NCBI GenBank assembly: GCA_964363825.1
Contig: CAYIJR010000002.1
Coordinates: 1-32,393, forward strand
Length of the DNA stretch: 32,393 nt
Direction of reading: 5' to 3'
Source of the DNA: an uncultured Candidatus Saccharibacteria bacterium
Lineage (GTDB): Bacteria; Patescibacteriota; Minisyncoccia; Minisyncoccales; Staskawiczbacteraceae
Of this stretch, positions 9,536-17,412 are shown piece after piece. Position 1 is the stretch's first letter; the number at the start of each line of letters is the position of its first letter. Made by a program: the position numbers and the translations under genes. A model generated the notes under the pieces. The model was given only the letters and a program-made list of their open reading frames with translations, ran no database searches and was not told the origin of the DNA.

Positions 9536-11332
9536 ATGTGCGGAATTGTTGGCTACATAGGAAGCAACAAAGCCCTTCCTTTTTTAATGTCAGGATTGAA
9601 AAAATTGGAATACCGGGGTTATGACAGCTCGGGTGTTTGTGTTAAAGAAAACAACGATTTTTATTTGCTTAAAAAACCGGGCAAAGTCAGCGAGCTGGAA
9701 AAAAATATAGAAAAAGAAAATGTTGCCGGTACTGCTGGCATTGCCCACACCCGCTGGGCGACTCATGGTGTTCCCAATGAAAAAAACGCTCATCCCCACA
9801 CAGACTGCACAGGCAAGATTGCCATTGTCCATAACGGCATTGTGGAAAATTACCAAGCATTAAAAGAGTTGCTCGTGCAAGAAGGGCATAAAATAATTTC
9901 AGACACCGATTCAGAAATCATCGCCCATTTGATTGAAAAATTCTACGATGGGGATATTGAAAACGCAACTACCAAAGCTTTAAAATTGATTGAAGGCGCG
10001 TACGGCCTGGCCATTTTGGATAAAAATTCAGAAAAAATAATTGCCGCCCGGAAAAGCAGTCCGTTGGTGTTGGGCATTGGCCAGGGCGAAAACTTTATTG
10101 CATCTGATGCGTCAGCCATTTTGGGCTACACCAAAAATGTCGTGTATTTAGATGACGGAGAAATGGCGGTGATGACCAAAGATAGCTATGTGGTGAAAAA
10201 ATTAAACGGCGAATTAGTAGACAAAAAAGTCCATCAGATTGCCATGACCATTGACCAGATAGAAAAGAGGGGATTCAAGCATTTCATGCTCAAAGAAATT
10301 TTTGAACAGCCCGAAGCCATTGAAAATACCTTGAGGGGTAGAATTATTGGTAATAAAGTAAAGCTCAATATTGATTTGGACTTGTCGTCAATCCAAAGGA
10401 TTATTATTACTGCTTGCGGCACCAGTTGGTATTCCGGGCTCATCGGTAAATACTTGATTGAAAAGTTGGCTGGAATTCCGGTTGAAGTTGATTATGCTTC
10501 GGAATTTCGGTATCGCGATCCTATTGTGCGACAAAGCGATTTGATGATTGTCATTTCGCAATCTGGCGAAACGGCCGACACGCTGGCGGCGCTCAAAGAG
10601 GCAAAGCAAAAAGGGGCCAAGACATTGGGCATTATCAATGTGGTTGGGTCTACCATTTCGCGTGAAGTTGATTCTGGAATTTACTTGCACGCCGGCCCGG
10701 AAATAGGGGTGGCCAGCACTAAGGCTTTTACCTGTCAGGTTACAGCCTTGGCGTTGCTGGCTTTATATTTTAAACAGGAAAAAGGGGAATCGCAAAAGGG
10801 GATATTAGAAGAATTGCCAAAAATACCGGAAAAAATCAGGGAAATTTTGAAAATGTCCGGCGACATACGTAATTTGGCCGAAAAATTTAAAGAGTACAAA
10901 AACTTTTTGTACTTGGGCAGGAATTTGAATTTCCCGGTGGCCTTGGAGGGAGCGTTAAAATTAAAAGAAATTTCGTACATCCATGCCGAAGGGTATCCGG
11001 CGGCCGAAATGAAGCACGGCCCCATTGCATTAATAGACGAAAATATGCCCGTGGTTTTCATTTGCCCCAAAGACGGCACCTATGCCAAAATTTTAAGCAA
11101 CATGGAAGAAGTCAAAGCCCGCGGGGGGAATATCATTGCCATCACCAATGAAGACGACGGCAACATTTCAAAATTGGCAAACCACATTATCAAAGTCCCA
11201 AAAACCATAGACATTTTGTCTCCATTAATCAATGTCATCCCGTTGCAATTGTTGGCCTACCACATCGCCGACTTGAAAGGATTAAATGTTGACAAACCGC
11301 GCAACTTAGCCAAATCCGTGACGGTGGAGTAG
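9536..11332 (+). CDS. glmS: Glutamine--fructose-6-phosphate aminotransferase
   Basis: MCGIVGY N-terminal nucleophile, two SIS domains (ISQSGETADT), C-terminal KSVTVE. 598 aa. Confidence 0.95.
   Translation: MCGIVGYIGSNKALPFLMSGLKKLEYRGYDSSGVCVKENNDFYLLKKPGKVSELEKNIEKENVAGTAGIAHTRWATHGVPNEKNAHPHTDCTGKIAIVHNGIVENYQALKELLVQEGHKIISDTDSEIIAHLIEKFYDGDIENATTKALKLIEGAYGLAILDKNSEKIIAARKSSPLVLGIGQGENFIASDASAILGYTKNVVYLDDGEMAVMTKDSYVVKKLNGELVDKKVHQIAMTIDQIEKRGFKHFMLKEIFEQPEAIENTLRGRIIGNKVKLNIDLDLSSIQRIIITACGTSWYSGLIGKYLIEKLAGIPVEVDYASEFRYRDPIVRQSDLMIVISQSGETADTLAALKEAKQKGAKTLGIINVVGSTISREVDSGIYLHAGPEIGVASTKAFTCQVTALALLALYFKQEKGESQKGILEELPKIPEKIREILKMSGDIRNLAEKFKEYKNFLYLGRNLNFPVALEGALKLKEISYIHAEGYPAAEMKHGPIALIDENMPVVFICPKDGTYAKILSNMEEVKARGGNIIAITNEDDGNISKLANHIIKVPKTIDILSPLINVIPLQLLAYHIADLKGLNVDKPRNLAKSVTVE
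10521..10535 (+). repeat. Copy of the word CTATTGTGCGACAAA (inside glmS, read P-I-V-R-Q)
   Basis: Exact match to the core attgtgcgacaa. Confidence 0.9.
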
Positions 11333-11374
11333 GGCCGCTCGTACCCGCGTGCCAAAACTCCCGACGGATAATTT

Positions 11375-11408
11375 ACCCCCAAAACTGACGATCGTCACTT
11401 TTGGGGGT
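11375..11408. other. Long hairpin in a GC-rich non-coding 100-nt stretch after glmS
   Basis: acccccaaaactgacga/tcgtcacttttgggggt is a 16-bp stem with one C-C mismatch. There is no T-run on either strand. Confidence 0.6.
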
Positions 11409-11432
11409 AAGCCCTGCCTACCCACCCCTTAC

Positions 11433-11450
11433 CTTATTGTGCGACAAAAT
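11433..11450 (+). repeat. Copy of the word CTTATTGTGCGACAAAAT at the left edge of the high-GC block
   Basis: Exact core, in an intergenic position. Confidence 0.9.
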
Positions 11451-11459
11451 TAGAAAAAC

Positions 11460-11489
11460 TTGACAATATGACAATAAGTATGATACGAT
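11460..11489 (+). promoter_or_regulatory. Candidate sigma70-type promoter for the 11570 ORF
   Basis: TTGACA at 11460-11465, an 18-nt spacer, then TACGAT at 11484-11489 (alternatively TATGAT at 11479). It shares cTTGACAATrT with the promoter at 13810 (the (-)-strand promoter at 16395-16423 has aTTGACAATAT). Confidence 0.4.
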
Positions 11490-11569
11490 TGCGTTAGTAC
11501 AAAACCGGTCTATTTTACCAATCGTCTCGTTGATGAAGTCGTAAAAAGACCAAACGATGGAGTATAGCA

Positions 11570-12289
11570 GTGAAAATTATCCGCGACGAAAAGCTGGCGA
11601 CGCTTATGTTCGTTCCCGTGGAGAGTAACGAGGTCAAATGGCTTTCTTTGCTCATCAAGACTCTCAAGAAGGGAGACCTGGTACACTACGATGGCAGGGA
11701 AGATGATAAGGAAGATCGCCGGTTCTGCGACATCCATCTGCGCTTTGGCAAGTGGCAGAAGAAGGAGCGCACGAAAAAGTACAAGAATGGAAGTAGCTTC
11801 CGTTGGTCAGAAATCGTGGGTGGGCATAAACTCAAAATCCGTGGAAGCACGGAGCAAGACCGGCACGAGGTCAACCGCGTTCGCAACGGCGCGTGCTATG
11901 TTGGCAGTCTTGTTTACCTTAATGAAGTCGAGGTGGACGGGCAGAGGTCTGTCGTCTTTACCATCGGCTACTGTCCGCACTGCGGCGTGGCAATGATTGA
12001 CTCCACTTCGTGCGAGTGGCGCATCTGCAATGCTTGCGCTGCAAAGTGCAAGCACAACTGGGTCGAAGGTTTGGTGAAAGGGGGCGGCATCCCTGGCGGC
12101 CATGGAGTTGGCAAGTTCTGCGACAAGTGCGGGCGTGGCAAAATGCCCACCAAGAGACAAAAAAAGATGTCTCAAGCAGAACACGCCCTTGAGCTTGAGC
12201 GCAAGCTCGGCTTCCTGACCATCTACAAGAACACGCCCCTCACTCCCAGGCAGATCGTTGAACGGGAAAAAGCTGTTGCTTCCCGCTAA
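11570..12289 (+). CDS. Cys-rich (zinc-ribbon-like) hypothetical protein, 239 aa
   Basis: GTG start 7 nt after GGAG. CPHCG...CEWRICNACAAKCKH...CDKCG cysteine clusters. Sampled GC is about 53%. A clean terminator follows. Confidence 0.6.
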   Translation: MKIIRDEKLATLMFVPVESNEVKWLSLLIKTLKKGDLVHYDGREDDKEDRRFCDIHLRFGKWQKKERTKKYKNGSSFRWSEIVGGHKLKIRGSTEQDRHEVNRVRNGACYVGSLVYLNEVEVDGQRSVVFTIGYCPHCGVAMIDSTSCEWRICNACAAKCKHNWVEGLVKGGGIPGGHGVGKFCDKCGRGKMPTKRQKKMSQAEHALELERKLGFLTIYKNTPLTPRQIVEREKAVASR

Positions 12290-12314
12290 TTCTTCAAAAA
12301 ATCAGAAAGTATAT

Positions 12315-12346
12315 GACCGCATGGTTTATCCAGCGGTCTTTTTTTT
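12315..12346 (+). terminator. Rho-independent terminator of the 11570 ORF
   Basis: gaccgc (12315-12320) pairs with gcggtc (12333-12338), then a T8 run. Confidence 0.8.
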
Positions 12347-12373
12347 CACAAAAAATCCGCCAGAGGACGGATT
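12347..12373 (-). terminator. Rho-independent terminator of efp
   Basis: On the minus strand, aatccg-tcctctgg-cggatt is followed by ttttttgtg. Confidence 0.75.
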
Positions 12374-12378
12374 CGTAA

Positions 12379-12410
12379 GTCTTAAATCTTATATCTTAAA
12401 TCTTAAATCT
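12379..12410. repeat. Tandem 7-mer (ATCTTAA) x 4.5 just downstream of the efp stop
   Basis: gtcttaa atcttat atcttaa atcttaa atct. Confidence 0.85.
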
Positions 12411-12975
12411 ATTCGCTTGCCCGCTTTACATACTCTCCCAAGTCGGTGTTGACTTCAATGACATCGCCTTCTTCGATGAAAAGCGGGACTTGGATGGTGG
12501 CTCCCGTTTCCAGAATGGCTTCTTTGGTGCCGCCTTGGGCGCGGTCGCCTTTGATTCCCGGCGGCGCTTCTTTTATTTTCAGCGCCACTTTAATGGGGCT
12601 TTTCACGGTGATGATTTTGTCATCAAATAAAATTCCCTGTACCAAAGAATTCGGTTTGAAAAACTTTGCCTGCGAGCCCAGCAAATCTTCGCCAAAAGAA
12701 AAGCGTTTTGAGGGGTCGTTGGCCTCGCAGAAAAAATACTGGCCTTTATTGGAATACAAAAACTTAATATCTTTTTTTACCAGATCAGCTTCTTGGAACA
12801 TGTCTCCTTGCTGGAAGGTTTTTTCCTGGACGGATCCGGTAATTAAGTTGCGGATTTTCGTCTGCACCACCGGTCTGCGCTGGGCCATTTTTACATGCAA
12901 AGAATCCAGCACTTCCCAAGGCTGGTTTTCAAAAATAAACTGCGTCCCCTTTTTTAGGTCAGTGTGAGTTAACAT
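12409..12975 (-). CDS. efp: Elongation factor P
   Basis: 188 aa. MLTHTDLKKGTQFIFENQPWEVLDSLHVKMAQRRPVVQTKIRNLITG is the typical EF-P N-terminal KOW-like domain. Confidence 0.92.
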   Translation of the reverse strand: MLTHTDLKKGTQFIFENQPWEVLDSLHVKMAQRRPVVQTKIRNLITGSVQEKTFQQGDMFQEADLVKKDIKFLYSNKGQYFFCEANDPSKRFSFGEDLLGSQAKFFKPNSLVQGILFDDKIITVKSPIKVALKIKEAPPGIKGDRAQGGTKEAILETGATIQVPLFIEEGDVIEVNTDLGEYVKRASE

Positions 12976-13109
12976 AATCTGTGAATTTAGAATTTAGTAT
13001 CTGGCAGCTTGAATTGAATTTTGAATACTGAAGCACCGGCGGGGAGTCCCTCTGGGTCCAGCAGAATTCCATATTCTATTCCAACTTCAAGATACAAGAT
13101 TCAATATTC

Positions 13110-13772
13110 TCACTCGATTGACCTCCACTCGATCTCCGCTTCTTTCCCCGCGTAGAGCAGCCATTCACCGCTTTTGGAAATAACATATTTTTTGCCGTTT
13201 TTTTCTACCATCGGGTCGCCCCGGTAAAACGGTTTTTTGACGATTTCTTTGGGTTTTAAGCGGTCCAACTCCAGCCACTTTTTAAAAACGGTTTCAATGG
13301 TGTAATCTAATTTCCGGGAATTGGCCCAGGCGGCCACGGTATCGATAGCTTTTTTGGATGCTTCAATCCCACCGGCCAATTCCAACAGTTGTTTGGCGGG
13401 TTTGACGAATCGTGAATAGATTATCTTTCTTTTTTTAGCATTTTCTTTCAATTCTTGCAAGCCCAAGCCTTTGGATTTAAAAAAATGGGGGATAATGACC
13501 TGCAAAGCGGTTTCTTCTTCCAATTTTTCATATTCTTTAATGCGGGATTTTTTAATGTATTCTTCAATTTTTTTGGCATTTTTTTCGCCAATACCGGCTT
13601 CTCGAATGCCTTTTAGCCCTTTTTCTTGGTAAATTTCAGAAATATCGGTTTTCAAATATTCCAAAATTCGTGCCGATTTTCGGTAGGCATTTATGCGAAA
13701 AGCCGATTCTCCCTTAATCTCCAAAAGCTCCGCCATTTTCTTGAAAATATCCGCGATATTATCATTCATCAT
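13110..13772 (-). CDS. Helix-hairpin-helix protein resembling the N-terminal (8 kDa/HhH) part of family X DNA polymerases; no polymerase core
   Basis: NIADIFKKMAELLEIKGESAFRINAYRKSARILE and GIGEKNAKKIEEYI match the Pol X N-terminal pattern. The C-terminal 120 aa are unassigned. Confidence 0.55.
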   Translation of the reverse strand: MMNDNIADIFKKMAELLEIKGESAFRINAYRKSARILEYLKTDISEIYQEKGLKGIREAGIGEKNAKKIEEYIKKSRIKEYEKLEEETALQVIIPHFFKSKGLGLQELKENAKKRKIIYSRFVKPAKQLLELAGGIEASKKAIDTVAAWANSRKLDYTIETVFKKWLELDRLKPKEIVKKPFYRGDPMVEKNGKKYVISKSGEWLLYAGKEAEIEWRSIE

Positions 13773-13809
13773 AACTTATCATACTACAACACAAAATCGC
13801 GAAAAGGTC

Positions 13810-13837
13810 TTGACAATGTATATGTGTATGATAATAT
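13810..13837 (+). promoter_or_regulatory. Near-consensus promoter with extended -10 for the 13908 operon
   Basis: TTGACA at 13810-13815, a 16-nt spacer, then TGaTAATAT (TAATAT at 13832-13837). An 8-bp leader hairpin follows at 13850-13870. Confidence 0.6.
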
Positions 13838-13907
13838 GGTTCTTACAAGCTAAAACAGTGTATGTTTTAGGCTAAATCCTGATCATTGACAAGAAGGGAG
13901 GTTTCCC

Positions 13908-14645
13908 GTGAATAACGCGTTAGAGGAAAAACAAGAAGTTTTTTCCGGCCCGTTTGAGGAATGCTTGAAGCATTTTGCAGCGGATTTTTCTGCAAAAATG
14001 CCCAAGTTTGCACAAAAAACAGTCGATGCTAAAATTTTTATCGCTGATTTTTGTGGAAGAAACATCTACACCATTAGCGAATGGTTAGCGGCCAAGTATC
14101 AACCTGCGGGCACATCACTGATGAAGATGATGTGCTATCTGGACATGGTTGGCTACAGAATCTTTGAGCTGGAAAGGATGTCCAAGGCCAAGAGGCACTT
14201 TATTGAGCTTATTGGATTTGGAATCTTATCTGCTCAAGAAGGATCTCAATTGCTGTCCTATTCTCAGCCCGGGCAACTTCTGAAAATCCTTAGAGAAGAT
14301 GTCGGCACAACCGAATCTAAGGAACAGAGGATGTGGGAGATTTGGCGAGAGCGCAAGGAAGTGCTCGAGCAAAAAAAAATGCAACGCCGCCAAGCGTTAC
14401 CGGGTGTGCCAGAAAAAAACCTTTTTCAGAAAGAGCCTTTTGTTAAGGCCAATGGGATGATTGATAGCATTGACGCTATGGTCACCATGGAGAATTTGCT
14501 CCGCACCCTAGATGAAGACTTTTCCCAAGAAGTGTTTGAAAACCTTCTTCGCGGAAAGGGGACAGTGCTCCGGCTTTCAGCCAAGCTCAACGAATTGAGT
14601 TACACAATCCTCAAGGCAGAGGAAAAGAAAGGAGGTGATTCTTGA
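13908..14645 (+). CDS. Hypothetical protein with a possible XRE-like HTH (245 aa)
   Basis: GTG start after GGGAGG. The IYTISEWLAAKYQPAGTSLMKMMCYL segment resembles an HTH. The C-terminal part is coiled and charged. Confidence 0.6.
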   Translation: MNNALEEKQEVFSGPFEECLKHFAADFSAKMPKFAQKTVDAKIFIADFCGRNIYTISEWLAAKYQPAGTSLMKMMCYLDMVGYRIFELERMSKAKRHFIELIGFGILSAQEGSQLLSYSQPGQLLKILREDVGTTESKEQRMWEIWRERKEVLEQKKMQRRQALPGVPEKNLFQKEPFVKANGMIDSIDAMVTMENLLRTLDEDFSQEVFENLLRGKGTVLRLSAKLNELSYTILKAEEKKGGDS

Positions 14646-14905
14646 AAAAAGAAGAAAAGGAGTATCAGGCAACTGTCGACAAAGTCATTGTTGACGGCAA
14701 GCACGGAAGCTACGGCGTTGCGCGGTGCAAGGAATTGGGCGTAATCACTTTTTCGCTGGACCAGAAAGTCTGGCAAGAAGAAGACGCGCCTGAACCTGGT
14801 ACTTGCGTCATATTGTCAAAAATCCGTAAAAAGCGCCTTGGTTGGCGCGCGGAAGTCGCGCGGTTTGTGACGCCGCTCGATGAACAGCAACATCAGAACC
14901 AGTAA
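14642..14905 (+). CDS. Small hypothetical protein (87 aa)
   Basis: TTG start overlapping the upstream TGA (cTTGA), preceded by AAAGGAGGTG. No motif recognised. Confidence 0.55.
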   Translation: MKKEEKEYQATVDKVIVDGKHGSYGVARCKELGVITFSLDQKVWQEEDAPEPGTCVILSKIRKKRLGWRAEVARFVTPLDEQQHQNQ

Positions 14906-14923
14906 CCAGTAACAGCAAGGAGA

Positions 14924-15850
14924 ATGAGCATGAAGATCATCAAGAAAAACCTGGTCGTGGAGCTTGAAAAAATCCACACCAACCTGTTTGTCAGGAAGGC
15001 CCTAGATGCCAACCGCAAAAAGCATTTCGAGGATCTCATTGCCGAGATTGTTGCCCTGCAGAACCAGGGCAAGACGCTCGACCCCCAGCTTTTGGACAAT
15101 GTCCGTCCGATGCTGGTCACGCCGGCGTACGAAGTGTTGGGCAACGGCAAGTTGCGGTATCTGCCCGACACCCCTTACTATGAGGGAGTTGATGGCCGGC
15201 ATCGTCACTGGGCCTGGACTGTTCATGGAGTCAAGGAGACTGCCGTGACGGTGGCCGAGTATGAGACCTACGTGGATCTTATTTCGGAGGCCTCAAAAGC
15301 CAATCTTGGCGGTTCTATGCCACCGACTCCCGAAGACCGGAAACTCACCGTACGGAATCTTGTGCAAGCCGGCGCCAGTCACCGCGAAGTCGCTGAAGCC
15401 ATCGGGTTTACGATGGGCATGACTCGTCGCATGGTGGAGCAGGCTAAGGCAGAAATCAACCGTGCCCGGTTGATCGATGCCCTTGACGAGTACCGCCTTG
15501 GCAATACTCCCCTGCCCCAGATTGCCGCAAAGCATCGCGTGGATGAGGATAAGTTACGCGAGCTTGTGGGGGTGTCTGGCCGCCGGGGCAAGAAAAAGAT
15601 CAAGGAGCTGCACACCCAGCTTACCGCCACAGCCAAAGGAAACGCGGCCCGGCGGTCCAAGCTCTTTGCCAGTCTTATGGACAAGTACCAAGACCGGGAA
15701 GTGACGGTCAAGCAAGTCAGGCAAGTGTTCAAACACTTGCAAGATACCTTGGCGCGTCAGGAAAAACACATCAAGGAATGGGAAAGTCGTTTTGAAGCTG
15801 CCATAAGAGGAGGCAGCCAAGATCAAAATGAAAAAAAGGAATCGGCGTAA
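14924..15850 (+). CDS. ParB/Srx-fold (ParB-like nuclease domain) protein with central HTH
   Basis: The VDGRHRHWAW (DGxHR) motif lies about 90 aa from the N-terminus. An HTH-like segment is SHREVAEAIGFTMGMTRRMVEQAK. SD AAGGAGA. Confidence 0.65.
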   Translation: MSMKIIKKNLVVELEKIHTNLFVRKALDANRKKHFEDLIAEIVALQNQGKTLDPQLLDNVRPMLVTPAYEVLGNGKLRYLPDTPYYEGVDGRHRHWAWTVHGVKETAVTVAEYETYVDLISEASKANLGGSMPPTPEDRKLTVRNLVQAGASHREVAEAIGFTMGMTRRMVEQAKAEINRARLIDALDEYRLGNTPLPQIAAKHRVDEDKLRELVGVSGRRGKKKIKELHTQLTATAKGNAARRSKLFASLMDKYQDREVTVKQVRQVFKHLQDTLARQEKHIKEWESRFEAAIRGGSQDQNEKKESA

Positions 15851-15861
15851 GCCGAGTTCAG

Positions 15862-15898
15862 GCCGAGGCACACACATTGTGTGTTCCTCGGCTTTTTT
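15862..15898 (+). terminator. Rho-independent terminator of the 13908-15850 operon
   Basis: gccgaggcacaca-cat-tgtgtgttcctcggc, followed by T6. Confidence 0.8.
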
Positions 15899-15916
15899 AT
15901 TAATTAACTTTTTTAT

Positions 15917-15949
15917 AAGAAAAAAGCTCGAACTGGGCGTCCGAGCTTT
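15917..15949 (-). terminator. Rho-independent terminator of the 15976..16377 ORF
   Basis: On the minus strand, aaagctcg-loop-cgagcttt is followed by a T-run. Confidence 0.7.
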
Positions 15950-15975
15950 GTCTTCCTTAGCGGAGCCAAGTAGAC

Positions 15976-16377
15976 TTAGTGTTGTAGGACGAAGCCATCA
16001 ACGCTTTGGCTATTGATTTCTCGGAGGCTTCGATTCTCTTCACGAAGGTAGTAATTAGCCTGTTTTAACCCATAAATGGTTCCGATGAGATTGAAGATAC
16101 ATTGGGGTAATTTTTCAATCGGATCTTCGCCTTCTTCGAGTTGGACTATGGGCGTCAGGTTGCTTGCATCAACCTCATTCACAACCCTGTGTTGCGGGTA
16201 AACCAGCTTCAATATGAAGTTACCTGGTGTTCCACTCATTGGGTGTGGTTCGATTTGCTCCACAACCACGCCGAGACTTTCAAAATTTGCTTCGCAGGGA
16301 CCATGGCAAGTGTACGCTACGAGCGTATCTTTCTGAATTTTCACGTTTCTGTCCTCATGTGAGCGAAAGGATGGCAC
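15976..16377 (-). CDS. Hypothetical protein (133 aa), convergent with the ParB-like operon
   Basis: Only a GTG start is available and there is no clear SD. It has its own promoter-like element and terminator. Confidence 0.45.
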   Translation of the reverse strand: MPSFRSHEDRNVKIQKDTLVAYTCHGPCEANFESLGVVVEQIEPHPMSGTPGNFILKLVYPQHRVVNEVDASNLTPIVQLEEGEDPIEKLPQCIFNLIGTIYGLKQANYYLREENRSLREINSQSVDGFVLQH

Positions 16378-16394
16378 TGTTTCGACACACTTTC

Positions 16395-16423
16395 ATCATA
16401 AGTCTATTACAAGATATTGTCAA
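16395..16423 (-). promoter_or_regulatory. Consensus-type promoter on the minus strand
   Basis: On the minus strand: TTGACA (16418-16423), a 17-nt spacer, TATGAT (16395-16400). The context is aTTGACAATAT, as in the other two block promoters. Confidence 0.55.
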
Positions 16424-16460
16424 TAGTGAAAATGGGCTTGATTTTTGATAGAGTTCAACT

Positions 16461-17060
16461 ATGCAAAAGAAACACAGGATTTTTATTGCCATCAATTTTC
16501 CATCCGAGGTTAAAAAGTATTTGGCAAAGTTCCAAGAAAGATGGGCGGAGCTTCCGGCAAAGTGGGCGAGTGCCGAAAATTTGCATATCACCATGGTTTT
16601 TCTGGGAGACTTGACCGACCAAGAACTGGGCGAAGTTTGTATGGCTACAAAAGAAGTTGTAAAAAACTGCAACTCTTTTGATATTAATTTAAATAAAGTG
16701 AGTTACGGACCCGACGACAAAATTCCGCCGCGCATGGTGTGGGTCGGCGGAGGAAAAAATAAAGAATTGTCTTTGTTAAAGAAAAATTTAGAAGAGTCGT
16801 TATTGGGTAAAATAAATTTTAAATTAGAAGAAAGGTTATTCAACCCCCACGTTACATTGGCAAGGATTAGCACGTTTTTATGGCGGCAGATTGAGCCGGA
16901 AGAACGGCCGGAAGTTGCCGAAAATATTGACGTGAGTTTTACCGTGGAATCCATTGAAGTCATGGAGTCAGAATTAAAACGCAGCGGCCTGCCTGCGCCG
17001 AGCTCTGCGCGGCAGGCAGGCCCGCAATACATTACCATTGAATCGCATCAGCTTCAATAG
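16461..17060 (+). CDS. thpR: RNA 2',3'-cyclic phosphodiesterase / 2'-5' RNA ligase family (2H phosphoesterase)
   Basis: Two HxT/S motifs, HITMVFLG and HVTLAR. 199 aa. Confidence 0.8.
   Translation: MQKKHRIFIAINFPSEVKKYLAKFQERWAELPAKWASAENLHITMVFLGDLTDQELGEVCMATKEVVKNCNSFDINLNKVSYGPDDKIPPRMVWVGGGKNKELSLLKKNLEESLLGKINFKLEERLFNPHVTLARISTFLWRQIEPEERPEVAENIDVSFTVESIEVMESELKRSGLPAPSSARQAGPQYITIESHQLQ
16986..17022. repeat. GC-rich palindrome lying in frame in the thpR 3' region
   Basis: ggcctgcctgc (16986-16996) pairs with gcaggcaggcc (17012-17022) around gcgc-c-gagctc-t-gcgc. It encodes GLPAPSSARQAG. Confidence 0.8.
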
Positions 17061-17081: not shown

Positions 17082-17111
17082 ACATCTCTAATTCGCGCGA
17101 ATTAGAGATGT
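17082..17111. promoter_or_regulatory. Perfect 30-bp palindrome upstream of the ArsR-family gene (candidate operator)
   Basis: acatctctaattcgc/gcgaattagagatgt. It sits 29 nt before ATG 17140. No T-run follows. Confidence 0.5.
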
Positions 17112-17139
17112 GTTAAATGGGGTTAAATTCATTAAAGTT

Positions 17140-17412
17140 ATGGATAAAATAAAGGGAGTAGAAAAAGTACTTAAAGTTTTGGCTAATAAAAGAAGGTTAG
17201 CGATTATTAAATATTTAAAGAAAAGTAAAGAAGCGAAAGTGGGGGATATCTCAGAAGAAATTAAGCTTTCTTTCAAAGCGACTTCCAAACATTTAAATTT
17301 GCTTTTTAATGCTGATATTGTAGAAAAAGAGCAAAGGAGTCTCCAAATGTGGTATAAACTTTCACCAAGCCTGAATCATATATCAAAATATATCTCTAAT
17401 TCGCTCGAATAA
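17140..17412 (+). CDS. ArsR/SmtB-family winged-helix transcriptional regulator
   Basis: LKVLANKRRLAIIKYLKKSKEAKVGDISEEIKLSFKATSKHLNLL fits the ArsR HTH pattern. ATG 17140 is preferred to the track start 17110, which lies in the palindrome. Confidence 0.75.
   Translation: MDKIKGVEKVLKVLANKRRLAIIKYLKKSKEAKVGDISEEIKLSFKATSKHLNLLFNADIVEKEQRSLQMWYKLSPSLNHISKYISNSLE

What the first reader, a model, noticed from the sequence alone, without database searches (positions are those of the whole stretch)
11333..16440. Higher-GC block with orphan genes interrupting the glmS-thpR interval
Hand counts of 60-nt lines inside 11570-12289 and 13908-16377 give about 50-58% GC, against about 27-42% for most flanking genes.

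The block's ORFs have no recognisable housekeeping function. They use GTG or TTG starts with strong SD sites (GGAG, GGGAGG, AAAGGAGGTG, AAGGAGA). They have near-consensus promoters sharing TTGACAATRT (11460, 13810, 16423 minus) and textbook terminators.

The block is split by two minus-strand genes, efp and an HhH protein. These are among the few minus-strand genes in the window, and efp itself sampled at about 48-60% GC. So either two insertions flank a native inverted segment, or the whole 5 kb including efp is one acquired or rearranged segment. No integrase and no obvious flanking direct repeats were seen. The left edge carries a copy of the 13-mer word (11433) and a 34-nt hairpin.
Basis: partly seen in the sequence, partly recalled or inferred. 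Interest (0 to 1): 0.65.

Follow-up and report, generated by a model that had tools for sequence, protein, structure and literature searches.

The report
Two small foreign gene cassettes
The GC-rich "block" is really two small gene cassettes, acquired separately by horizontal transfer, sitting in the spacers on either side of a native efp gene pair in an uncultured groundwater bacterium; this is an ordinary kind of event, although the cargo genes are uncharacterised.

Summary
The GC anomaly is real, but it is two separate peaks and not one 5-kb block. One peak is at 11.5-12.3 kb (GC 0.55, z 4.2). The other is at 14.7-15.9 kb (GC 0.57, z 4.8).

The host is a Candidatus Staskawiczbacteria (CPR) bacterium. 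In about 80 related genomes the order glmS> <efp <HhH | thpR> murC> recurs, so efp and the HhH gene are native. The minus-strand 122/133-aa ORF is also native: it has positional homologues, and its terminator is conserved at a relative's empty site.

Two self-contained units, each running from its own promoter to its own terminator, were inserted:
- **Cassette 1 (about 11447-12350).** One gene for a 239-aa Cys-rich zinc-ribbon protein. It belongs to a small CPR family, and its confident predicted fold matches nothing in PDB or BFVD.
- **Cassette 2 (about 13806-15902).** A three-gene operon, A-B-C. C is a divergent ParB/Srx-plus-HTH protein. An 83%-identical copy lies between different genes in another metagenome. 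The B-C pair recurs in distant relatives.

Codon usage of the inserted genes is foreign and resembles higher-GC lineages. All four genes are under purifying selection. I found no integrase, tRNA, terminal repeat, phage hit or plasmid hit. Independent assemblies and even read depth rule out a chimera. The functions of the cargo genes are inferred, not shown.

The parts
9536..11332 (+). glmS, native left flank
   Evidence: GATase/SIS domains on the same gene in L001 and L091. Convergent with efp in relatives L006, L010, L011, L012 and L074. GC 0.430.
11373..11410 (.). 38-nt palindrome (19-nt arms, 95% complementary) after glmS. No T-run. Absent from the related species L091.
   Evidence: I3; alignment.
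11433..11446 (+). Copy of the over-represented, strand-biased word CTTATTGTGCGACA. It is native and marks the left edge of insertion 1.
   Evidence: 13 matches with up to 3 mismatches against 2.7 expected. Also found in relatives. Variants are present at the empty glmS|efp sites of L006 and L011, and a copy lies at the same place in L091.
11447..12350 (+). Insertion 1: a single-gene expression cassette (promoter, leader, 239-aa ORF, terminator).
   Evidence: Bounded by the native word and the efp terminator, which lie about 45 bp apart at the empty site of L011. Absent at this locus in all 80 relatives. Present at the same place, 76% nt identical, in L091.
11460..11489 (+). Promoter-like site of cassette 1 (TTGACA, 18 nt, TACGAT with TG). 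TGACAATA is repeated in tandem.
   Evidence: Conserved in L091 as TTGACAGTAT...TATGATA.
11570..12289 (+). 239-aa Cys-rich zinc-ribbon protein of a CPR family ('o239'). GTG start, GGAG SD.
   Evidence: GC3 0.667, codon-bias z 3.8. 30 homologues at 39-79% identity, with invariant CxxC...CxxC..C.H...CxxC. dN/dS 0.094. AF2 pLDDT 83.5. No structural match. Only sub-threshold zinc-ribbon Pfam hits.
12315..12346 (+). Terminator of cassette 1 (GACCGC, 12-nt loop, GCGGTC, then T8).
   Evidence: Sequence. Conserved in L091.
12348..12373 (-). Native efp terminator (AATCCG...CGGATT plus T-run on the minus strand).
   Evidence: Sequence. The same hairpin is present at the empty site of L011 and in L091.
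12409..12975 (-). efp (elongation factor P), native.
   Evidence: Pfam EFP_N and Elong-fact-P_C. Adjacent to HhH in most of the 80 relatives. GC 0.460, z 1.5.
13110..13772 (-). HhH protein (HHH_8, like the N-terminal part of PolX), native.
   Evidence: Pfam HHH_8 at 4.5e-15. PolX N-terminal region at 3.8e-11. 327 relatives found, 58-77% identical among the 80 kept. GC 0.403.
13806..15902 (+). Insertion 2: three-gene A-B-C operon cassette with its own promoter and terminator.
   Evidence: 83% nt identical to L002 over 13883-15901 only; in L002 it lies between an ABC ATPase and obg. At the L004 empty site the HhH start codon is 35 bp from the o122 terminator hairpin. No homologue in the 80 relatives.
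13810..13837 (+). Promoter-like site of cassette 2 (TTGACA, 16 nt, TAATAT with TG).
   Evidence: The hexamers are conserved in L002.
13884..13903 (+). Conserved leader element (C/A)TTTGACA just upstream of the SD GGGAGG. Candidate operator or RNA element.
   Evidence: Identical in L002. CTTTGACA is at the equivalent place in L092 and L101.
13908..14645 (+). Gene A, 245 aa. No family match. Possible tandem HTH, but this is weak.
   Evidence: 75% identical in L002 and 37% in L092 and L098. dN/dS 0.20. Best PDB profile hit is an XRE-like protein at E 0.21. Replaced by an unrelated 111-aa gene in L101.
14642..14905 (+). Gene B, 87 aa. The most conserved partner. TTG start overlapping the stop of A.
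   Evidence: 91% (L002), 58% (L092, L098) and 48% (L101) identical. dN/dS 0.08. No family or PDB hit.
14930..15850 (+). Gene C, 306 aa (an in-frame ATG also lies at 14924). Divergent ParB/Srx fold, then HTH(s), then a C-terminal helical region.
   Evidence: Family of 348 clusters. The family profile hits PDB ParB, Spo0J and sulfiredoxin over positions about 21-93 (best ParB E 7e-4). 35 of 54 members hit phrog_1033, ParB-like partition protein. HTH_23 and psq hits occur in members. G89 and R90 are invariant, H91 and R92 nearly so. dN/dS 0.07. GC3 0.648.
15861..15898 (+). Terminator of cassette 2 (GGCCGAGG...CCTCGGC plus T6).
   Evidence: Sequence. The stem sequence is shared with L002 and with the distant cassette in L092.
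15923..15949 (-). Terminator of the native small gene o122.
   Evidence: Conserved at the L004 empty site.
15976..16344 (-). o122 (listed as a 133-aa ORF ending at 16377). A native, fast-evolving small gene divergent from thpR.
   Evidence: Called as 122 aa in L003. Positional homologues at 28-31% identity in L004, L009 and L014. GC3 z 0.8.
16395..16423 (-). Promoter-like site of o122 (TTGACA, 17 nt, TATGAT; 11 of 12 matches).
16461..17060 (+). thpR (2',5' RNA ligase / LigT family), native right flank.
   Evidence: Pfam LigT_PEase at 6.8e-22. Syntenic with murC and HhH in relatives.

Best explanation
**What is there (shown).** The interval is a native Staskawiczbacteria backbone: glmS>, <efp, <HhH, <o122, thpR>, murC>. 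Two unrelated, self-contained expression cassettes from other, GC-richer CPR-type lineages were inserted into it independently. Each went into a short intergenic spacer next to a native terminator.
- **Cassette 1 (about 0.9 kb)** carries one gene for a 239-aa zinc-ribbon protein.
- **Cassette 2 (about 2.1 kb)** carries an operon A-B-C. Its conserved core is the small protein B plus C, a divergent ParB/Srx-fold protein with helix-turn-helix domains.
- Both cassettes bring their own strong promoter, SD sites and terminator, and both are kept by purifying selection.

**How they arrived (inferred).** They carry no integrase, transposase, terminal repeats or target duplication. The most likely route is uptake of foreign DNA and recombination into permissive spacers. 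Both spacers hold different cargo in other relatives. I put this at about 0.5.

**What the cargo does (inferred).**
- C most likely acts as an orphan ParB-type, nucleotide-switched DNA-binding regulator or clamp, working with B. Autoregulation may go through the conserved CTTTGACA leader or the terminator palindrome. KorB-KorA, BisD and VirB are the models. I put this at about 0.4.
- The 239-aa protein is most likely a zinc-dependent nucleic-acid-binding protein of unknown role. I put this at about 0.3.

The overall confidence given (0.8) is for the structural and evolutionary part: a native backbone plus two independent, horizontally acquired cassettes.
For: **Native backbone**
- Synteny in 80 relatives.
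- Composition of efp, HhH and o122 is within the native range.
- o122 has positional homologues.

**Insertions**
- Empty sites in L004, L006 and L011 bracket both cassettes to within tens of bases.
- Neither cassette is found at these loci in the 80 relatives.
- Cassette 2 recurs at 83% nt identity between unrelated genes in L002, and the similarity stops at the promoter and the terminator.
- o239 relatives sit in four other contexts, each with its own promoter and terminator.

**Foreign origin**
- GC, GC3, codon-bias and tetranucleotide z-scores are 3.5-8.
- Codon usage correlates at r = 0.10 with host genes and r = 0.61 with housekeeping genes of high-GC loci.
- The same families are GC-rich in other low-GC hosts: L089 0.596 against 0.39, L098 0.589 against 0.40.

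**Functional genes**
- dN/dS is 0.07-0.20.

**Not an artefact**
- Independent assemblies L001 and L003 are 99.6-99.7% identical.
- Four runs show even depth of about 5x, with contigs crossing every junction.

**C is ParB-like**.

**The B-C core is conserved**.

**Published context**
- Orphan ParB-fold proteins are common and linked to mobile elements (PMC12704722).
- Gene exchange, mostly between Patescibacteria, is reported for aquifer genomes (PMC12455944).
Against: - No mobility gene, att site, target duplication or terminal repeat was found, so the insertion mechanism is not shown.
- The window's own C protein does not reach any Pfam or PHROG ParB model. The assignment is transitive, through its family profile.
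- The AF2 model of C was poor (pLDDT 47).
- Cassette 1 has co-diverged with its flanks: dS is 1.33 against 1.16 for glmS and 0.88 for efp. Yet it keeps GC3 at 0.67 in both species. Simple decay of GC towards the host's level (amelioration) explains this only if the donor GC3 was about 0.8 or selection slows the decay.
- The taxonomy of the hosts of L002, L092, L098 and L101 was not determined, so 'GC-richer CPR donors' rests on the named Kerfeld- and Kaiserbacteria homologues of o239 and on locus composition only.
- There are no expression data.
Confidence: 0.8

Rival explanations
1. The whole 5-kb interval, including efp and HhH, is one acquired or inverted segment.
For: efp and HhH are among the few minus-strand genes in the window. 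efp GC3 (0.545) is the highest among the native genes.
Against: efp-HhH divergent from thpR-murC is the arrangement in most of the 80 relatives, and glmS is convergent with efp in five. HhH has native composition, and efp is only z 1.5-2.1. The two GC peaks are separated by 1.5 kb of host-like sequence. The two cassettes have unrelated distributions.
Confidence: 0.03
2. The GC-rich genes are native genes whose codon usage is shaped by very high expression or another internal constraint, not by transfer.
For: They have strong promoters and SD sites. Native genes of higher GC3 do exist, such as efp and glmS. Cassette 1 has kept GC3 at 0.67 through dS of about 1.3 in two species. The order of GC3 (A below B below C) is the same in every host.
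Against: The genes are absent at these loci from 80 relatives. The same cassette lies in a different context in L002. Codon preferences are not an exaggeration of the host's GC3-rich genes: r is 0.30, against 0.61 with high-GC lineages, and there are opposite choices for Arg, Leu, Lys and Ile. The distribution across Kerfeld-, Kaiser- and Staskawiczbacteria is patchy.
Confidence: 0.07
3. The cassettes are the last surviving pieces of larger integrated elements (prophage, plasmid or ICE) that have otherwise decayed.
For: Relatives of C match phage 'ParB-like partition protein' PHROGs. Orphan ParB-fold genes are often linked to mobile elements (PMC12704722). One o239 homologue lies beside a serine recombinase, a LAGLIDADG gene and DDE transposases (L085). 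One cassette 2 relative follows a tRNA cluster (L092).
Against: There are no matches in IMG/VR, INPHARED phages or PLSDB plasmids for any of the proteins tried. The unit ends exactly at its promoter and terminator in two contexts. Distant versions are again just two or three genes between housekeeping genes. The empty sites leave no room for remnants.
Confidence: 0.12
4. The interval is a chimeric assembly that joins DNA from different organisms.
For: Composition switches sharply within a low-coverage metagenome contig.
Against: Two independent contigs from another assembly reproduce all junctions at 99.6-99.7% identity. A second species has glmS-o239-efp. Word depth of about 5x is even across native and inserted parts in four runs, and single contigs cross each junction.
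Confidence: 0.01
5. At the level of function: cassette 2, cassette 1 or both are an anti-phage defence system or a toxin-antitoxin/addiction module, rather than a regulator or clamp.
For: They are small, self-contained, horizontally moving cassettes kept by selection in variable spacers. One C relative lies next to a GHKL-type ATPase (L097). o239 has sub-threshold MqsA-like zinc-ribbon hits.
Against: There is no significant PADLOC hit for any of the proteins. No recognisable nuclease, ATPase or toxin domain was found in A, B, C or o239.
Confidence: 0.15

Closest known systems
Orphan ParB-CTPase-fold DNA-binding proteins outside parAB operons (KorB of RK2, BisD of ICEclc, VirB, Noc)
   Same: Gene C has an N-terminal ParB/Srx-type region with counterparts of boxes I-III, including the GxxR P-motif (G89..R92). 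This is followed by helix-turn-helix domain(s) and a helical C-terminus. There is no parA neighbour, and the gene moves horizontally. That matches the class surveyed in PMC12704722. Like KorB with KorA, it is always paired with a small partner protein.
   Different: Pfam ParB_N does not detect it: there is no hit for the window protein and only 1 of 54 relatives hits. The HTHs are of the HTH_23 / psq / transposase-N-terminal type. Partner B is not an HTH protein and matches nothing. No parS-like site, NTP binding or clamp behaviour has been shown. It sits on the chromosome as a 2-kb cassette.
Horizontally acquired genes and genomic islands of groundwater Patescibacteria (PMC12455944)
   Same: Compositionally deviant genes in aquifer Patescibacteria, with probable exchange between Patescibacteria, and uptake by competence proposed as one route.
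   Different: These units are far smaller (0.9 and 2.1 kb). Each is a complete promoter-to-terminator unit in a 35-80 bp spacer. They carry no mobility genes. One of them is old enough to have co-diverged with its flanks.
Tn7-type insertion at attTn7 downstream of glmS
   Same: Cassette 1 lies immediately downstream of glmS in two species.
   Different: There are no Tns genes, Tn7 ends or 5-bp duplication. Other family members are not next to glmS. Relatives carry unrelated cargo at the same spacer.
Zinc-ribbon modules such as DUF2321, the IS91 transposase zinc-binding domain and the MqsA N-terminal domain
   Same: The CxxC...CxxC...CxxC region of the 239-aa protein gives weak hits to these models. 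DUF2321 hits 18 of 30 members, best E 2e-4.
   Different: All hits are below the curated cut-offs and cover only about 40-60 residues. The beta-rich N-terminal 130 residues and the whole predicted fold have no match in PDB or BFVD.

Membership tests
Horizontally acquired islet / genomic island | Base composition and codon usage deviate from the host genome | tested here: met
   GC z 4.2-4.8, tetranucleotide z 6-8, GC3 z about 4 for o239 and C. Codon usage correlates at r = 0.10 with the host. Only the 32-kb window and relatives' loci served as background, not a whole genome.
Horizontally acquired islet / genomic island | Absent from the same locus in close relatives (an empty site exists) | tested here: met
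   No homologue at these loci in 80 relatives. Empty sites are aligned in L004, L006 and L011. Exception: cassette 1 is shared with one related species, L091.
Horizontally acquired islet / genomic island | The same unit is found in unrelated genomic contexts | tested here: met
   Cassette 2 lies between an ABC ATPase and obg in L002. Relatives lie next to rpmG/tRNAs, dnaE and others. The o239 family is found in four other contexts.
Horizontally acquired islet / genomic island | Mobility genes (integrase, transposase) and flanking repeats or a tRNA target | tested here: not met
   No such Pfam, PHROG or NCBIfam hit. No tRNA in the window. No flanking direct or inverted repeats.
ParB/Srx (ParB-CTPase fold) superfamily, for gene C | N-terminal ParB/Srx fold detectable by profile | tested here: inconclusive
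   The window protein alone matches no ParB model: no Pfam ParB_N hit at E up to 0.1 and no ParB-like PHROG. Its family profile hits PDB ParB chains (E 7e-4), Spo0J (5e-3) and sulfiredoxins over one region. 35 of 54 members hit phrog_1033, best E 1e-11. The AF2 model was too poor to test the fold.
ParB/Srx (ParB-CTPase fold) superfamily, for gene C | Box II P-motif GxxR (with box I and box III counterparts) | tested here: met
   G89 and R90 are invariant, H91 and R92 are at least 90% conserved, and N125 is invariant within 'AN.GG'. The motif definition is from PMC12704722.
ParB/Srx (ParB-CTPase fold) superfamily, for gene C | Central helix-turn-helix DNA-binding domain | tested here: met
   HTH_23, HTH_psq, HTH_28 and HTH_Tnp_1 hits occur in 4-12 of 54 members. 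The window protein itself gives only a weak HTH PHROG hit at E 0.002.
Canonical ParABS partition system | Adjacent parA ATPase gene and parS site | tested here: not met
   There is no ATPase gene in the cassette or next to it here, or in L002, L092, L098 or L101. parS could not be tested.
ParB-type NTP switch | Binds and hydrolyses CTP or another NTP, and clamps DNA | not testable with these tools
   This needs a biochemical assay. PMC12704722 reports that nucleotide specificity cannot be predicted from sequence or from AlphaFold3.
Prophage or phage remnant | Phage structural or replication genes, or similarity to known phage genomes | tested here: not met
   No IMG/VR relatives for A, B, C or o239. 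No INPHARED match for C. No significant PHROG hits for the window proteins apart from a weak HTH hit.
Insertion sequence / transposon (including Tn7 at glmS) | Transposase gene, terminal inverted repeats and target-site duplication | tested here: not met
   The IS91 hit is only to a zinc-binding motif (17-21 bits against cut-offs of 26 and 125).
Known anti-phage defence systems (PADLOC) | Match to a defence-system protein model | tested here: not met
   No hit better than E 0.008 for any of nine proteins.

The most novel reading that the evidence does not exclude
The B-C pair could be a widespread, undescribed two-protein system of uncultivated bacteria. B is a small conserved protein. C is a ParB/Srx-HTH protein that Pfam ParB_N does not detect. 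The C family has about 350 clusters at 50% identity. The system would be a new kind of nucleotide-switched DNA clamp or silencer, or it might even promote its own integrase-free insertion, given its transposase-type HTHs and its precise promoter-to-terminator mobility. Separately, the 239-aa zinc protein could represent a new fold and function that spreads as a single-gene cassette.
Probability: 0.15. Interest if true: 0.6.

Novelty: new member of a known kind. Interest (0 to 1): 0.35.

Why it matters
For annotation, it settles several points:
- efp and its neighbour are native.
- The anomaly is two separate small acquisitions.
- The assembly is sound.

More broadly, it gives a clean, base-resolved example of how streamlined CPR genomes gain genes. 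Complete expression cassettes drop into short spacers without any recognisable recombinase. The same two spacers carry different cargo in related species.

It also flags two uncharacterised families that may be worth a biochemical look:
- a ParB-like/HTH protein with an obligate small partner, which standard ParB models miss;
- a zinc protein with a confident predicted fold that has no structural relative.

None of this is surprising in kind. Horizontal transfer in Patescibacteria and orphan ParB-like genes on mobile DNA are both documented.

Tried and rejected
**Searches that found nothing**
- Rfam on the window and six loci, to see whether GC-rich spacers hide an RNA gene: no hits.
- IMG/VR scans for A, B, C and o239: no relatives. 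A scan with the 54-sequence C alignment could not be run because no stretch was conserved enough.
- Phage and plasmid tblastn for C: no match.
- The JGI metagenome scan for C returned only the contig already known.
- PDB profile searches for A, B and o239: nothing significant.
- PADLOC: nothing.
- RNA-seq runs: none available.
- Cluster look-up for organism names of the C-family hosts: none on record.

**Structure**
- AF2 of C with a two-sequence alignment gave pLDDT 47 and was not used.
- The fold search of the good o239 model gave no match. The best was a HIRAN-domain protein at E 0.027 and TM 0.23-0.38. I treat this as no evidence.

**Ideas rejected**
- L096 as a second context for a C relative: it is the same locus with indels.
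- The fourth TTGACAATAT, antisense inside gene B, as a promoter: it has no -10 box and is explained by the conserved codons for I-L-S-K.
- The shared TTGACAATRT as a sign of common foreign origin: one of the three promoters belongs to the native o122 gene.
- Translational selection as the cause of the high GC3: rejected on codon-level comparison.
- The 13-mer word as a cassette end: rejected because it is present at empty sites.

Full report
**1. The observation**

The window averages 41.1% GC. Sliding 500-bp windows outside 11333-16440 have GC 0.399 +/- 0.036, with a maximum of 0.470. Inside the interval there are two separate peaks: 0.554 at 11751-12250 (z 4.2) and 0.574 at 15001-15500 (z 4.8). 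Tetranucleotide distance peaks at the same two places (z 6.2 and 8.0). It falls back to background over 12.5-14.0 kb.

Per-gene values:

| Gene | GC | GC3 | Note |
|---|---|---|---|
| 239-aa ORF, 11570-12289 | 0.537 | 0.667 (z 4.1) | strong outlier |
| 306-aa ORF, 14930-15850 | 0.546 | 0.648 (z 3.8) | strong outlier |
| 87-aa ORF, 14642-14905 | 0.504 | 0.557 (z 2.3) | intermediate |
| 245-aa ORF, 13908-14645 | 0.447 | 0.492 (z 1.2) | within or at the edge of the native spread |
| efp | 0.460 | 0.545 (z 2.1) | within or at the edge of the native spread |
| minus-strand ORF at 15976 | 0.453 | 0.463 (z 0.8) | within or at the edge of the native spread |
| HhH gene | 0.403 | 0.457 (z 0.7) | native-like |

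The anomaly is therefore real and well beyond the local variance.

- The three promoter-like sites, the SD sites and the hairpin/T-run terminators.
- TTGACAATRT, which occurs four times in the window, all inside the block, against 0.16 expected.
- The 19-nt-arm palindrome at 11373-11410 and the word copy at 11433.
- The absence of tRNAs, flanking repeats and integrase-like genes.

**2. The host and its native gene order**

The HhH protein recovered 327 relatives in the species-representative genome collection. The 80 best are named mostly Candidatus Staskawiczbacteria, or other Parcubacteria/Patescibacteria.

I mapped the window's proteins onto those 80 loci. In the large majority, efp lies next to HhH, and thpR-murC lies on the other side in the divergent orientation. 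In L006, L010, L011, L012 and L074, glmS is convergent with efp. The order glmS> <efp <HhH | thpR> murC> is therefore ancestral, and the two minus-strand genes are not an acquired or inverted piece.

None of the 80 loci encodes a relative of the 239-, 245-, 87- or 306-aa proteins (tblastn at 1e-5).

**3. The minus-strand 133-aa ORF is native**

It is called as 122 aa in an independent assembly. That start, GTG at 16344, has a GAGGA SD site. It also aligns with the start of positional homologues in the same thpR-divergent slot of L004, L009 and L014. These are 28-31% identical. phmmer gives 3.5e-7 for L004, and jackhmmer converges on the three. Its terminator hairpin is conserved nearly base for base in L004.

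**4. Insertion 2, a three-gene cassette**

The 306-aa protein has one close relative, 89% identical. The contig that carries it (L002, a JGI metagenome) holds the same three genes (245, 88 and 306 aa) between an ABC-type ATPase and obg.

Nucleotide similarity to the window is 83% and runs only from 13883 to 15901. The promoter hexamers and the leader upstream are recognisably conserved, and the similarity ends at the terminator T-run.

In L004, the closest relative by HhH, the HhH start codon lies 35 bp from the o122 terminator hairpin. In the window, the cassette sits exactly between these two landmarks. The inserted unit is therefore about 13806-15902, running from its promoter to its terminator.

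**5. Insertion 1, a single-gene cassette**

The 239-aa protein has 30 homologues at 39-79% identity. Two are named by NCBI as Kerfeldbacteria and Kaiserbacteria proteins.

The closest one (79%) lies between glmS and efp in another Staskawiczbacteria-like genome (L091). The others lie in four different contexts:
- beside RNase T and DnaB;
- after a 2',5' RNA ligase gene;
- beside a serine recombinase, a LAGLIDADG gene and DDE transposases.

Each copy has its own promoter, leader and terminator. Two copies in hosts of very different GC share those non-coding parts.

The empty glmS|efp spacers of L006 (74 bp) and L011 (279 bp) contain variants of the 13-mer word (one mismatch in L011, a more divergent form in L006). 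L011 also has the efp terminator hairpin about 45 bp beyond the word; L006 has an unrelated terminator hairpin. The window and L091 have the cassette between those two landmarks. The unit is about 11447-12350.

**6. Foreign origin, and some caveats**

Codon usage of the inserted genes correlates at r = 0.10 with the host's ordinary genes and at r = 0.30 with the host's GC3-rich genes. It correlates at r = 0.61 with housekeeping genes of two high-GC loci that carry relatives. The preferences for Arg, Leu, Ile, Lys and Glu are opposite to the host's. This is not an exaggeration of the host's own bias.

The same families stand out in other low-GC hosts. The o239 relative in L089 is 0.596 against about 0.39. 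The C relative in L098 is 0.589 against about 0.40. Both families blend in, or fall slightly below, in high-GC hosts. This is what one expects of genes that circulate among hosts of different composition.

Two qualifications apply:
- Cassette 1 is old. Between the window and L091 its dS is 1.33, against 1.16 for glmS and 0.88 for efp. So it has co-diverged with its flanks, yet it keeps GC3 at 0.66-0.67 in both species. My rough decay (amelioration) estimate is an inference. It takes a host equilibrium GC3 of about 0.45-0.5 and assumes most synonymous changes are between strong and weak bases. On that estimate the retention is compatible with passive decay only if the donor GC3 was about 0.8, as in other family members (0.76-0.79), or if selection slows the decay.
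- Within cassette 2 the order of GC3 (A below B below C) is the same in every host examined. Part of the composition is therefore specific to each gene.

**7. The genes are functional, and the assembly is sound**

dN/dS is 0.094 for o239, 0.20 for A, 0.08 for B and 0.07 for C.

Two contigs from a separate ENA assembly of the same aquifer reproduce every junction at 99.6-99.7% identity. In four public groundwater runs the word depth is even, at about 5x, over native and inserted parts. Single contigs cross each junction, and no joint skips a cassette. Because these are contigs, they show presence only. A minority of cassette-free cells cannot be excluded.

**8. What the cargo encodes**

*Gene C.*
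- It matches no Pfam family by itself.
- An exhaustive HMMER search found 348 clusters at E up to 1e-3 and 180 at E up to 1e-10.
- A 54-sequence profile of the family matches solved ParB proteins (E about 7e-4), Spo0J (5e-3) and sulfiredoxins, always over the same N-terminal region.
- 35 of the 54 members match PHROG 1033, 'ParB-like partition protein', with best E 1e-11.
- Members carry HTH_23, psq and HTH_28 type helix-turn-helix domains.
- The conserved positions include V21-R22 and G89-R90 (invariant), H91-R92 (at least 90% conserved) and invariant N125. G89..R92 forms the GxxR P-motif of box II, as defined in PMC12704722.
- There is no parA gene nearby.
- C is therefore a divergent orphan ParB/Srx-plus-HTH protein, of the class recently surveyed and found to be often linked to mobile elements (PMC12704722). 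That survey was built on PF02195, which does not detect this family.

*The operon around C.* Relatives of C at only 26-33% identity sit in the same kind of operon:
- 247-89-264 aa after rpmG and a tRNA cluster (L092);
- 236-81-261 aa before dnaE (L098).

Across those two operons A is 37% and B is 58% identical to the window's proteins. In L101 the order is B, then an unrelated 111-aa gene, then C, with B 48% identical. A sequence variant, L105, has an XRE-type HTH fused in that middle position. The conserved core is therefore B plus C, with a replaceable third gene. In L097 a C relative lies next to a GHKL-type ATPase instead.

*Genes A and B.* Neither matches anything in Pfam, PHROGs, NCBIfam, PADLOC or PDB. 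By eye, B's sequence pattern recalls a small beta-barrel, cold-shock-like protein. This is a recollection, not a test.

*Conserved non-coding elements.* Two survive between distant cassettes:
- CTTTGACA, 10-25 nt upstream of the first SD site, in four of five cassettes;
- the terminator stem AGCCGAGGC...GCCTCGGC, in the window, L002 and L092.

These are candidate binding sites.

*The 239-aa protein.* It has eight conserved Cys/His residues in CxxC pairs. It gives only sub-threshold zinc-ribbon hits. Its AlphaFold2 model is confident (pLDDT 83.5) but has no significant match in PDB or BFVD. Its role is unknown. I favour a zinc-dependent nucleic-acid-binding protein, on weak grounds.

**9. How the cassettes got there**

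Nothing in or beside either cassette encodes a recombinase. There are no terminal repeats or target duplications.

Both spacers are variable in the clade. At glmS|efp, relatives carry secreted repeat proteins. At thpR|HhH they carry HD-domain, PaaX-like and Y1-transposase-like genes; these labels are from reading the ORF translations, not from a family search. The gaps range from 41 bp to about 1.9 kb in close relatives.

The simplest reading is uptake of foreign DNA and recombination into spacers where an insertion does no harm. This is an inference. It is consistent with the competence and pilus genes reported for Patescibacteria and with predominantly intra-Patescibacteria exchange in aquifers (PMC12455944). 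A role of C itself in insertion cannot be excluded, but nothing supports it.

**10. Verdict**

The finding is a correct detection of foreign DNA, and one of its two proposed structures is right. It is an ordinary kind of event, small horizontally acquired cassettes, documented here at unusual resolution.

The cargo families are uncharacterised. One of them, B plus the ParB-like C, is widespread enough to merit follow-up.

Noticed in passing
window 1542, 6778, 10520, 11433, 20090, 30174, 30899, 31541, 31585(-), 31667 and others: The word CTTATTGTGCGACA (core ATTGTGCGAC) is strongly over-represented: 13 matches with up to 3 mismatches against 2.7 expected, and 10 exact cores in 32 kb. Almost all copies are on one strand, both inside genes and between them. 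The core also recurs, on the equivalent strand, in many related Staskawiczbacteria loci. It could be an uptake-signal-like or chromosome-polarity-type word, but nothing here tests that.
   Followed up: partly
window 17082-17111: A perfect 30-nt palindrome (ACATCTCTAATTCGC/GCGAATTAGAGATGT) ends at the start codon of the ArsR-family gene (17110-17412). It is a likely operator for autoregulation.
   Followed up: no
window 12976-13109 (efp-HhH spacer): Contigs in all four groundwater runs, at 16-23x against about 5x for this genome, replace 13003-13064 with a different 23-nt stretch. Conserved parts of efp and HhH also show raised depth. More abundant close relatives with a different spacer therefore coexist in the aquifer.
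   Followed up: no
window 12373-12410: A short tandem motif, TCTTAAATCTTA (about three imperfect copies), lies just downstream of the efp stop codon. It is conserved in the related species L091.
   Followed up: no
loci L005, L007, L010, L012, L014, L024, L031, L035, L041, L053, L074 (thpR|HhH and glmS|efp spacers): Both spacers are hot spots of variable cargo in the clade. They hold HD-domain proteins, PaaX-like proteins, a Y1 (IS200/REP-type) transposase-like ORF, secreted repeat proteins and GC-rich unknown ORFs, for example in L031 (gap GC 0.488 against 0.358). The protein labels are from reading the translations by eye.
   Followed up: partly
L097:5243-8023: A relative of gene C (340 aa) lies directly after a 549-aa GHKL/HATPase_c_3 protein and two unknown genes, not after A-B. 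This is a different partnership for the same ParB-like family.
   Followed up: no
window 13884-13903 and 15861-15898; L002, L092, L101: Two non-coding elements are conserved between cassettes whose proteins are only 26-58% identical: CTTTGACA just upstream of the first SD site, and the terminator stem AGCCGAGGC...GCCTCGGC. Conservation of the sequence itself, not just of the base-pairing, suggests protein-binding sites.
   Followed up: partly
window 14817 (runs X1, X2): One contig in each of two runs matches the window only from 14817 rightwards, inside gene B, and continues leftwards into unrelated sequence. This may be a diverged second copy of the cassette in another community member.
   Followed up: no
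L085:4971-11261: One homologue of the 239-aa protein sits in a region with a serine recombinase, a LAGLIDADG-like gene, a tRNA-Gln and two DDE transposases. It is the only context seen with classical mobility genes.
   Followed up: no
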